Virus record (IMG/VR): IMGVR_UViG_2534681934_000006
Length of the DNA: 8,406 bases
DNA from: a virus
Taxonomy: Duplodnaviria; Heunggongvirae; Uroviricota; Caudoviricetes
Direction: 5' to 3' (one strand)
Shown: positions 4,974-6,272 of the stretch, in pieces
How positions within the stretch are numbered: the first letter of the stretch is position 1
How the letters are laid out: every line of letters starts with the position of its first letter
Position numbers and translations under genes: made by a program
The notes under the pieces: model-generated
What the model was told of the DNA's origin: nothing
Database searches by the model: none
What the model saw: the letters and a program-made list of their open reading frames with translations, nothing else

Positions 4974-6272
4974 TCTCCCGCATATTGCCAGCATGGCTTT
5001 TAATGAGCCGCTGATGCTTGAACCCGCCTATGCGCGGGTTTTCTTTTGTGCGCTTGCAGGCCAGCTTGGGATCAGCCGCCTGACGGATGCAGTATCCGGC
5101 GACAGCCTGACTGCCGGAGAGGCACCCGCGGCGCTGGCGTTATCCGGTGATGATGACGGACCACGACAGGCCCGGAGTTATCAGGTCATGAACGGCATCG
5201 CCGTGCTGCCGGTGTCCGGTACGCTGGTCAGCCGGACGCGGCGCTGCAGCCGTATTCGGGAATGACCGGTTACAACGGCATTATCGCCCGTCTGCAACAG
5301 GCTGCCAGCGATCCGATGGTGGACGGCATTCTGCTCGATATGGACACACCGGGCGGGATGGTGGCGGGAGCATTTGACTGTGCTGACATCATCGCCCGTG
5401 TGCGAGACATAAAACCGGTATGGGCGCTGGCCAACGACATGAACTGCAGTGCAGGTCAGCTGCTTGCCAGCGCCGCCTCCCGGCGTCTGGTCACGCAGAC
5501 CGCCCGGACAGGCTCCATCGGCGTCATGATGGCTCACAGTAATTACGGTGCTGCCCTGGAGAAACAGGGCGTGGAAATCACGCTGATTTACAGCGGCAGC
5601 CATAAGGTGGATGGCAACCCCTACAGCCATCTACCGGGTGATGTCCGGGAAACACTGCAGTCCCGGATGGATGCAACCCGCCGGATGTTTGCGCAGAAGG
5701 TGTCGGCATATACCGGCCTGTCCGTGCAGGCTGTGCTGGATACCGAGGCTGCAGTGTACAGCGGTCAGGAGGCCATTGATGCCGGACTGGCTGATGAACT
5801 TGTCAACAGCACCGATGCGATCACCGTTATGCGTGATGCACTGGATGCACGTAAATCCCGTCTCTCAGGAGGGCGAATGACCAAAGAGACTCAATCAACA
5901 ACTGTTTCAGCCACTGCTTCGCAGGCTGACGTTACTGGCGTGGTGCCAGCGACGGAGGGCGAAAACGCCAGCGCGGCGCAGCCGGACGTGAACGCGCAGA
6001 TCACCGCTGCGGTTGCGGCAGAAAACAGCCGCATTATGGGGATCCTCAACTGTGAGGAGGCTCACGGACGCGAAGAACAGGCCCGCGTGCTGGCAGAAAC
6101 CCCCGGTATGACCGTGGAAACGGCCCGCCGCATTCTGGCCGCAGCACCACAGAGTGCACAGGCGCGCAGTGATACTGCGCTGGATCGTCTGATGCAGGGG
6201 GCACCGGCACCGCTGGCTGCAGGTAACCCGGCATCTGATGCCGTTAACGATTTGCTGAACACACCAGTGTAA
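4954..6272 (+). pseudogene. C: Prohead protease gpC (S49-like serine protease), reading frame interrupted by an apparent 1-bp deletion near 5238-5242; N-terminal part 4954..5265 (premature TGA), remainder in another frame 5244..6272
   Basis: Seen in sequence: GTG at 4954 with GAGGAGG upstream encodes [32 protein letters not shown]..., the lambda gpC N-terminus, overlapping the B 3' end by 20 nt as in lambda. That frame ends ...LVSRTRRCSRIRE* at 5265. The lambda-like continuation (ALQPYSG)MTGYNGIIARLQQ... is in a different frame, open from 5154 to 6272. The two parts sum to about 439 aa, the lambda gpC length. Could instead be a sequencing error, so pseudogene status is uncertain. Confidence 0.6.
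5667..6272 (+). CDS. Nu3: Scaffolding protein gpNu3 (201 aa), in-frame internal start within the C 3' region
   Basis: ATG at 5667 (MDATRRMFAQKVSAYTGLSVQ...) in the same frame and with the same stop (TAA 6270-6272) as the C 3' portion; 606 nt, identical to lambda Nu3 length. Established knowledge: lambda Nu3 is nested in-frame in C. Confidence 0.85.
   Translation: MDATRRMFAQKVSAYTGLSVQAVLDTEAAVYSGQEAIDAGLADELVNSTDAITVMRDALDARKSRLSGGRMTKETQSTTVSATASQADVTGVVPATEGENASAAQPDVNAQITAAVAAENSRIMGILNCEEAHGREEQARVLAETPGMTVETARRILAAAPQSAQARSDTALDRLMQGAPAPLAAGNPASDAVNDLLNTPV

What the first reader, a model, noticed from the sequence alone, without database searches (positions are those of the whole stretch)
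5230..5265. Apparent 1-bp deletion frameshift splits the prohead protease gene C
Every other head gene here is intact and lambda-length, but C is broken into a GTG-initiated N-terminal segment (4954..5265, ending ...LVSRTRRCSRIRE*) and a 3' segment in another frame. The break maps to cgcggcgctg at about 5237-5246, where I recall lambda having cgcgggcgctg (one more G). If real, this phage makes no full-length gpC and capsid maturation could be defective (cryptic prophage); if an assembly error, the gene is intact.
Basis: partly seen in the sequence, partly recalled or inferred. Interest (0 to 1): 0.6.

Follow-up and report, generated by a model that had tools for sequence, protein, structure and literature searches.

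The report
One-base gap splits prophage protease gene
A single missing G splits the head-maturation protease gene of a lambda-like prophage in a 2012 draft contig of E. coli O157:H7 strain DEC4E, but no other public sequence shares it, so it is most likely a sequencing error or else a very recent private mutation.

Summary
At window 5240-5241 the sequence reads GG where phage lambda and every relative examined read GGG. This splits gene C, the S49 prohead protease gpC, into a 103-codon ORF (4954-5265) and a 336-codon ORF (5262-6272). Lambda gpC residues 1-96 match one frame and residues 97-439 match the other. Adding one G restores a 439-aa protein identical to the gpC of EDL933.

The window is an entire 8,406-bp contig (AIFO01000006.1) of the draft assembly of E. 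coli DEC4E. Its ends lie where co-resident prophage copies diverge. The deletion is the only difference not shared with at least one complete O157:H7 genome. It was absent from every other sequence searched, and the frameshift product is recorded on this contig alone. No slippery site exists, and all other head genes, including nested Nu3, are intact.

My best reading is a consensus error in a collapsed-repeat draft contig (about 0.6). The rival is a private, recent inactivating mutation in strain DEC4E (about 0.35). The decisive check is the later closed DEC4E genome, CP038398, which these tools do not hold. Either way the finding is ordinary.

The parts
5240..5241 (+). GG run; GGG in lambda and all relatives. 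Site of the 1-bp deletion, between codons 96 and 97 of gene C.
   Evidence: Alignment A1; pairwise differences; 120 of 120 viral contigs have G at the extra position.
4954..5265 (+). 5' fragment of gene C: GTG start, 96 authentic gpC codons, 7 out-of-frame codons (RCSRIRE), then TGA. Deposited as EHV20428.1 'head-tail preconnector protein GP5 [E. coli DEC4E]'.
   Evidence: No Pfam match.
4941..4949 (+). Shine-Dalgarno-like GAGGAGGAG, 4 nt upstream of the GTG start of C.
   Evidence: Read directly from the sequence.
5262..6272 (+). 3' fragment of gene C: ORF from ATG (Met104 of intact gpC) to the natural stop, 336 aa. It holds the whole Pfam Peptidase_S49 match and the serine aligned with the SppA active-site serine. 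Homology to gpC in this frame already begins at 5242 (residue 97).
5262..5265 (+). ATGA: the stop of the 5' fragment overlaps the ATG of the 3' fragment. This is a by-product of the frameshift, because the same ATG is Met104 in intact genes.
   Evidence: Sequence.
5667..6272 (+). Nested scaffold gene Nu3, in frame with the 3' part of C. 201 aa, intact and downstream of the break.
   Evidence: lambda annotation 5132-5737.
3372..4973 (+). Portal gene B, 533 aa, intact. Its end overlaps the start of C, as in lambda.
6282..6614 (+). Decoration gene D, 110 aa, intact.
6670..7695 (+). Major capsid gene E, 341 aa, intact.
727..3172 (+). Terminase genes Nu1 (727-1272, 181 aa) and A (1247-3172, 641 aa), intact.
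303..8394 (.). Stretch shared at 99.7-99.8% with lambda-like prophage copies of complete O157:H7 genomes. The contig stops 302 nt and 12 nt beyond these homology breakpoints, as expected of a multi-copy repeat contig.

Best explanation
The split is most likely a one-base consensus error (GGG read as GG) in a short, repeat-derived contig of the 2012 draft assembly of E. coli O157:H7 strain DEC4E. On this reading the real prophage carries an ordinary, intact lambda-type gene C: a 439-aa S49 serine protease with the scaffold gene Nu3 nested in its 3' third. That the deposited sequence has the gap, and that the gap is unique, is shown here. That it arose during sequencing or assembly rather than in the bacterium is inferred.
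For: 1. Source: the window equals the whole contig AIFO01000006.1 of GCA_000249455.2, E. coli DEC4E.
2. Repeat contig: alignments to prophage copies in complete genomes begin at 303 and end at 8394 or 8406, so the contig ends essentially at the points where copies diverge. O157:H7 genomes carry two or more copies of this gene C. The first 302 nt match a different prophage remnant.
3. Uniqueness in aligned copies: every substitution in the window is shared with at least one complete-genome copy, and only the deletion is private. From 2006 to 8246 the window is identical to EDL933, Gim1-1 and strain 4276 apart from this one base.
4. Uniqueness in collections: the 101 nt around the site have no 100% match in 5,426 complete E. 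coli genomes (4,442 places); the best matches are 99.0%, which corresponds to the gap.
5. The 26-nt deletion allele has 0 hits in IMG/VR, in the GTDB species representatives and in JGI metagenomes.
6. The 103-aa frameshift product is on record for this contig only, and the 90-aa and 148-aa alternative-start versions are on record nowhere.
7. Repair: adding one G gives a protein identical to WP_000123254.1, a sequence seen on at least 1,000 contigs.
8. The change is a homopolymer-length change in a 73% G+C stretch.
9. Assembly-level damage to the same gene occurs in other public records: CP035706.1 has an inserted N at window-equivalent 5368, and no C gene is called there.
Against: 1. The contig is otherwise clean. 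None of its 33 homopolymer runs of 5 nt or more, nor any of its other shorter runs, disagrees with the complete genomes. An isolated miscall in a 3-base run is therefore not what a homopolymer-prone platform would most often produce.
2. I could not confirm the sequencing platform of the draft. My recollection that the DEC genomes were 454-based is unverified, because the paper (PMC3370608) is not held.
3. O157 prophages are known to carry real defects (statement in PMC10758439 citing Asadulghani 2009). Related copies do have annotated frameshifted or partial tail genes.
4. No read data and no independent assembly of DEC4E could be examined.
Confidence: 0.6

Rival explanations
1. The deletion is a real, private and very recent 1-bp deletion in one lambda-like prophage of strain DEC4E, probably the Stx1a prophage or a sister copy. 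No full-length gpC would be made from that copy. Because gene C is essential for lambda growth, that prophage could not form infectious heads unless a co-resident copy supplied gpC in trans. Nu3 and the other head genes would still be expressed.
For: The frameshift is unambiguous in the deposited sequence. The contig shows no other indel discrepancy, so it is not a generally error-ridden assembly. Defects in O157 prophages are common, and annotated pseudogenes exist in neighbouring tail genes of related copies. Gene C is essential in lambda: efficiency of plating below 2e-7 on CRISPRi knock-down, and listed as essential in the literature (PMC10695390).
Against: The allele is seen in no other genome, virus contig or metagenome. 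The surrounding 6.2 kb has no accompanying divergence, so the event would have to be extremely recent. A private indel landing in any given 8-kb stretch is rare a priori. The source is a draft repeat contig.
Confidence: 0.35
2. The gene is really split but still functional. The TGA of the first ORF overlaps the ATG of the second (ATGA), so ribosomes could re-initiate and make gpC residues 104-439. This piece might work alone or together with the 103-aa N-terminal piece.
For: The ATGA overlap lies at 5262-5265. The downstream ORF keeps the entire Pfam S49 match (E = 2.4e-43) and the serine aligned with the catalytic serine of SppA.
Against: The ATG is simply Met104 of the intact protein, and the overlap is created by the shift itself. 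The alignment to B. subtilis SppA starts at gpC residue 81, so the first strand of the fold (GIAVLPVSGTLV) would be left on the other fragment. No relative has this arrangement. No selection signature is possible for a singleton.
Confidence: 0.03
3. The two frames are joined by programmed -1 ribosomal frameshifting, as in lambda G/GT.
For: The downstream frame is -1 relative to the upstream one, and the two are both open over 5157-5265.
Against: No X XXY YYZ heptamer exists anywhere in the upstream ORF. All relatives encode a single ORF.
Confidence: 0.01

Closest known systems
Bacteriophage lambda gene C (gpC, 439 aa, S49-family prohead protease) with nested Nu3
   Same: Same position between portal B and decoration D, same GTG start overlapping the end of B, and same nested 201-aa Nu3. 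Identity to lambda gpC is 96% over residues 1-96 and 99% over residues 97-439.
   Different: One G fewer in the run at codons 96-97, so the deposited sequence has two ORFs instead of one.
gpC of the lambda-like prophages of E. coli O157:H7 (WP_000123254.1; e.g. EDL933, Gim1-1, strain 4276)
   Same: The gene C DNA is identical across all 1,320 positions but one. The repaired protein is identical.
   Different: Only the missing G.
Bacterial signal peptide peptidase SppA (PDB 3RST, 4KWB, 3BEZ)
   Same: Same S49 fold family. gpC residues 81-298 align at E = 1.5e-21, with serine 166 opposite the serine of the SppA MAASGG motif.
   Different: SppA is a membrane-associated host protease with no scaffold domain. 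It is relevant only for mapping which fold elements lie on each side of the break.
Homopolymer-length consensus errors in draft or long-read assemblies
   Same: A single-base length change in a run, private to one assembly, that breaks an otherwise conserved ORF. The N insertions in CP035706.1 are comparable.
   Different: The run here is only 3 bases long and the rest of the contig has no such error. The platform is unverified.

Membership tests
Lambda gpC / Peptidase S49 prohead protease | Significant match to Pfam PF01343 above the gathering score | tested here: met
   The downstream ORF scores 148.2 bits (cut-off 24.9) over residues 47-194. The intact EDL933 protein scores 147.8 bits over residues 150-297.
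Lambda gpC / Peptidase S49 prohead protease | Active-site serine conserved | tested here: met
   Ser166 (intact numbering) aligns with the serine of the MAASGG motif of B. subtilis SppA. That this SppA serine is the nucleophile comes from established knowledge and was not tested here.
Lambda gpC / Peptidase S49 prohead protease | One uninterrupted ORF of about 439 codons | tested here: not met
   The gene is split at codon 96/97 into 103-aa and 336-aa ORFs in the deposited sequence. It is restored by adding one G.
Lambda gpC / Peptidase S49 prohead protease | Nested in-frame scaffold gene Nu3 and B-C-D-E gene order | tested here: met
   Nu3 ATG at 5667, 201 aa. The gene order Nu1-A-W-B-C-D-E-FI-FII is as in J02459.
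Pseudogene of a decaying (cryptic) prophage | Frame disruption relative to functional orthologues | tested here: met
Pseudogene of a decaying (cryptic) prophage | Disruption confirmed by reads or an independent assembly of the same strain | not testable with these tools
   A closed DEC4E genome, CP038398, exists (PMC10758439) but is not in the collections. No read data are available.
Pseudogene of a decaying (cryptic) prophage | Other signs of decay in the same module | tested here: not met
   All seven other complete head genes and Nu3 are full length with no internal stops. gpA is identical to WP_001027374.1.
Pseudogene of a decaying (cryptic) prophage | Allele shared by related strains (inherited) | tested here: not met
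   No other carrier was found.
Programmed -1 ribosomal frameshift | Slippery heptamer in the overlap, and a two-ORF layout conserved in relatives | tested here: not met
   No X XXY YYZ heptamer in 4954-5265. All relatives have a single ORF.
Sequencing/assembly indel artefact | Homopolymer-length change private to one draft assembly, in a repeat-derived contig | tested here: met
   GGG to GG; singleton allele; contig ends at the homology breakpoints.
Sequencing/assembly indel artefact | Contradicted by reads or by an independent assembly of the same strain | not testable with these tools
Sequencing/assembly indel artefact | Other errors of the same type in the same contig | tested here: not met
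   No other indel against six complete-genome copies. All 33 runs of 5 nt or more agree with them.

The most novel reading that the evidence does not exclude
The deletion is real in DEC4E, and the ATGA stop-start overlap lets the phage make a two-piece head protease: a 103-aa N-terminal peptide plus gpC residues 104-439, which carry the whole S49 catalytic region. This pair would still support capsid maturation and would be a natural split variant of a prohead protease.
Probability: 0.03. Interest if true: 0.35.

Novelty: not a real feature. Interest (0 to 1): 0.08.

Why it matters
It matters little. If it is an artefact, the only consequence is a mis-annotated pair of ORFs in a public draft: EHV20428.1 and a 336-aa 'S49 family peptidase'. 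If it is real, one lambda-like prophage of strain DEC4E, closely related to Stx1a-converting phages (99.5% identity in gene C), would be unable to mature its heads. It could then spread only with help from a co-resident prophage. That is a routine example of prophage inactivation and is relevant only to the mobility of that strain's phage.

Tried and rejected
1. I looked for the deletion allele elsewhere. An exact 44-mer and an exact 26-mer gave nothing in IMG/VR. The 26-mer gave nothing in the GTDB representatives or in JGI metagenomes. A 101-nt megablast against 5,426 complete E. coli genomes gave no perfect match.

2. I looked up the frameshift products by exact sequence with three possible starts. 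Only the source contig was found.

3. The 336-aa product occurs on 19 other contigs, but the nine I could read all begin exactly at the ATG, so they do not cover the site and say nothing about it.

I replaced it with a gapped pattern.

5. I tried to fetch the closed DEC4E genome as NZ_CP038398.1 and as CP038398. It is not held. A look-up through gpA did not surface it, because that protein is too widespread. The supplements of PMC10758439 have no entry for this gene.

6. I tried to read the DEC draft-genome paper (PMC3370608) for the sequencing platform. It is not held, and text searches for the accession found nothing.

7. Programmed frameshifting is rejected because there is no slippery heptamer.

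8. I tried to follow the Shigella sonnei truncation at the same site.

Full report
**What is in the sequence**

The window is a lambda-type head module. It contains cosN (GGGCGGCGACCT at 538-549) and these genes:

| Gene | Coordinates |
|---|---|
| Nu1 | 727-1272 |
| A | 1247-3172 |
| W | 3169-3375 |
| B | 3372-4973 |
| C | 4954-6272 |
| Nu3 (nested in C) | 5667-6272 |
| D | 6282-6614 |
| E | 6670-7695 |
| FI | 7737-8135 |
| FII (start only) | 8147 onward |

These assignments rest.

In a five-way DNA alignment the window reads ACGC-GGCGCTG. Lambda J02459, EDL933, Gim1-1 and MB9-1 read ACGCGGGCGCTG.

The ORF that starts at GTG 4954 follows a GAGGAGGAG Shine-Dalgarno-like motif and ends at TGA 5263-5265 after 103 codons. 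A second ORF runs from ATG 5262 to 6272 and encodes 336 aa. BLASTP puts lambda gpC residues 1-96 in the first frame and residues 97-439 in the second, with nothing missing and nothing duplicated.

Inserting one G gives a 439-aa protein identical to EDL933 gpC, WP_000123254.1. Nu1, A, W, B, D, E, FI and nested Nu3 all have exactly lambda's lengths and no internal stops.

**Where the window comes from**

An exact-product look-up shows that the window is the entire contig AIFO01000006.1 (8,406 bp) of assembly GCA_000249455.2. The 103-aa fragment is deposited as EHV20428.1, 'head-tail preconnector protein GP5 [Escherichia coli DEC4E]'. DEC4E is a human O157:H7 isolate from Denmark that carries stx1a at yehV (supplement of PMC10758439).

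Complete O157:H7 genomes carry two or more copies of this gene C. Alignments of the window to such copies start at 303 and stop at 8394 or 8406. The first 302 nt match a different, rearranged prophage remnant next to ISEc8. The contig therefore ends essentially where co-resident prophage copies diverge, which is the usual signature of a repeat-derived draft contig.

**How unusual the deletion is**

I compared the window with copies from EDL933, Gim1-1, strain 4276 (two copies), MB9-1, strain 113 and five further assemblies that span the site.

- Every substitution in the window is shared with at least one of these copies.
- The substitutions cluster in gene A as a patchwork and leave the gpA protein unchanged.
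- The missing G is the only private difference.
- Between 2006 and 8246 the window is identical to three complete genomes apart from that base.

Searches of the larger collections gave the same answer.

- The 101 nt around the site have no perfect match at 4,442 places in 3,134 of 5,426 complete E. coli genomes. The best matches are 99.0%, which corresponds to the single gap.
- The 26-nt deletion allele has no hit in IMG/VR, in the GTDB species representatives or in JGI metagenomes.
All 120 carry GGG.
- The 103-aa product is on record for this contig only among 153 billion gene positions. The 90-aa and 148-aa alternative-start versions are on record nowhere.
- The 336-aa product appears on 19 other contigs. 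The nine I could read all start exactly at the ATG, so they do not cover the site.

**What it means mechanistically**

Pfam places the S49 domain at residues 150-297 of the intact protein, entirely downstream of the break. The alignment to B. subtilis SppA (PDB 3RST, E = 1.5e-21) starts at residue 81, at the motif GIAVLPVSGTLV. The break at residue 96/97 would therefore separate the first strand of the fold from the rest. Ser166 aligns with the serine of the SppA active-site motif.

The frame change is -1. The two frames overlap over 5157-5265, but there is no X XXY YYZ heptamer anywhere in the upstream ORF. No relative has two ORFs. Programmed frameshifting is therefore rejected.

The ATGA stop-start overlap at 5262-5265 is a by-product of the shift, because the ATG is simply Met104 of the intact protein. 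Re-initiation there is conceivable, but nothing supports it.

If the deletion is real, the prophage would still make Nu3 and all other head proteins but no full-length gpC. Gene C is essential for lambda growth: efficiency of plating is below 2e-7 on knock-down and the literature lists it as essential (PMC10695390). gpC joins portal B and Nu3 in the head initiator (PMC3224144).

**Artefact or mutation**

Several observations point to an artefact.

- The source is a 2012 draft contig made of multi-copy prophage sequence.
- The change is a homopolymer-length change in a 73% G+C stretch.
- The allele is a strict singleton.
- There is no accompanying divergence in the surrounding DNA.
- Comparable assembly damage to the same gene exists in other public records. 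CP035706.1 has inserted N bases at window-equivalents 5368 and 6680, and no C gene is called there.

Other observations point the other way.

- The contig has no other indel discrepancy. All 33 homopolymer runs of 5 nt or more, and all other shorter runs, agree with complete genomes. This is not what a homopolymer-prone platform typically produces.
- I could not verify the platform. My recollection that the DEC drafts were 454-based is only a recollection, and the paper is not held.
- Real defects are common in O157 prophages. Related copies carry annotated frameshifted or partial tail genes.

Weighing these, I put the artefact at about 0.6, a real private mutation at about 0.35, a functional split gene at about 0.03, and programmed frameshifting at about 0.01.

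**The decisive test and why it was not run**

The same strain was later closed with PacBio (217x) and MiSeq/Pilon polishing as CP038398 (PMC10758439). A single blastn of window 5196-5296 against that record would settle the matter. The record is not in any collection available here. Indirect routes through gpA and through the paper's supplements also failed.

**Comparison with what is known, and verdict**

The gene is an ordinary member of the lambda gpC / S49 prohead-protease family in sequence, gene order and nested Nu3. The only family feature it fails is the uninterrupted ORF, and one base restores that. Nothing about it is new in kind. It is either an error in a database record or a routine, private inactivation of a prophage gene. 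Interest is low.

Noticed in passing
window 5236-5245 (compared with protein P0006 from Shigella sonnei): A 97-aa 'minor capsid protein C' of Shigella sonnei, seen on 26 contigs up to 29 kb, ends ...VSRTRG*. Gene C is therefore interrupted within a base or two of the same G-run there. From memory of the IS1 end (GGTAATG...), an IS1 insertion right after GGG would give exactly TRG-stop. This is unverified.
   Followed up: partly
L142 (CP035706.1) 14124 and about 15440; window equivalents 5368 and 6680: A 'complete' E. coli genome has single N bases inserted in gene C and just upstream of or within E. No C gene is called there, and E is called as 344 aa. This is an example of assembly-level damage to the same gene in another public record.
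   Followed up: partly
window 5261-5262; loci L003-L011: Nineteen other public contigs (NCBI drafts and Logan assemblies) carry the 336-aa ORF, and the nine I read begin exactly at the ATG at 5262. This is probably a recurrent assembly-graph break at the A/G polymorphism at 5261 between prophage copies. Lambda has G there and this window has A.
   Followed up: partly
window 1369-2518 (gene A): Prophage copies in different O157:H7 genomes differ from the window by contiguous patches of substitutions (1444-1762 in some copies, 1837-2518 in others). The gpA protein nevertheless stays identical to WP_001027374.1. This looks like gene conversion or recombination among co-resident lambdoid prophages.
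   Followed up: partly
window 1247-3172: The draft's own annotation calls terminase A from 1946 (408 aa), although the 641-codon ORF from GTG 1247 is open and identical in protein to complete-genome copies. This is an annotation start-site error, not a sequence defect.
   Followed up: yes
window 1-302 and 8395-8406: The contig ends lie just beyond the homology breakpoints between prophage copies. Bases 1-582 match (99.1%) a rearranged prophage remnant with inverted lysis genes next to ISEc8 in O157 genomes. The last 12 nt follow the Gim1-1 and strain 4276 (2.87 Mb copy) variant.
   Followed up: partly
L015 10286-10680; L012 13368-13670; L014 11717-12019: Related prophage copies in complete O157:H7 genomes carry annotated defects in tail genes: minor tail U is frameshifted in strain 4276, and tail assembly protein T is partial in Gim1-1 and 4276. 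Real decay therefore does occur in this prophage family, outside the window's range.
   Followed up: no
window 6650-6656: A T7 run just upstream of gene E is one T shorter in the MB9-1 and strain 113 copies. It is a natural or assembly homopolymer-length difference in an intergenic spacer.
   Followed up: no
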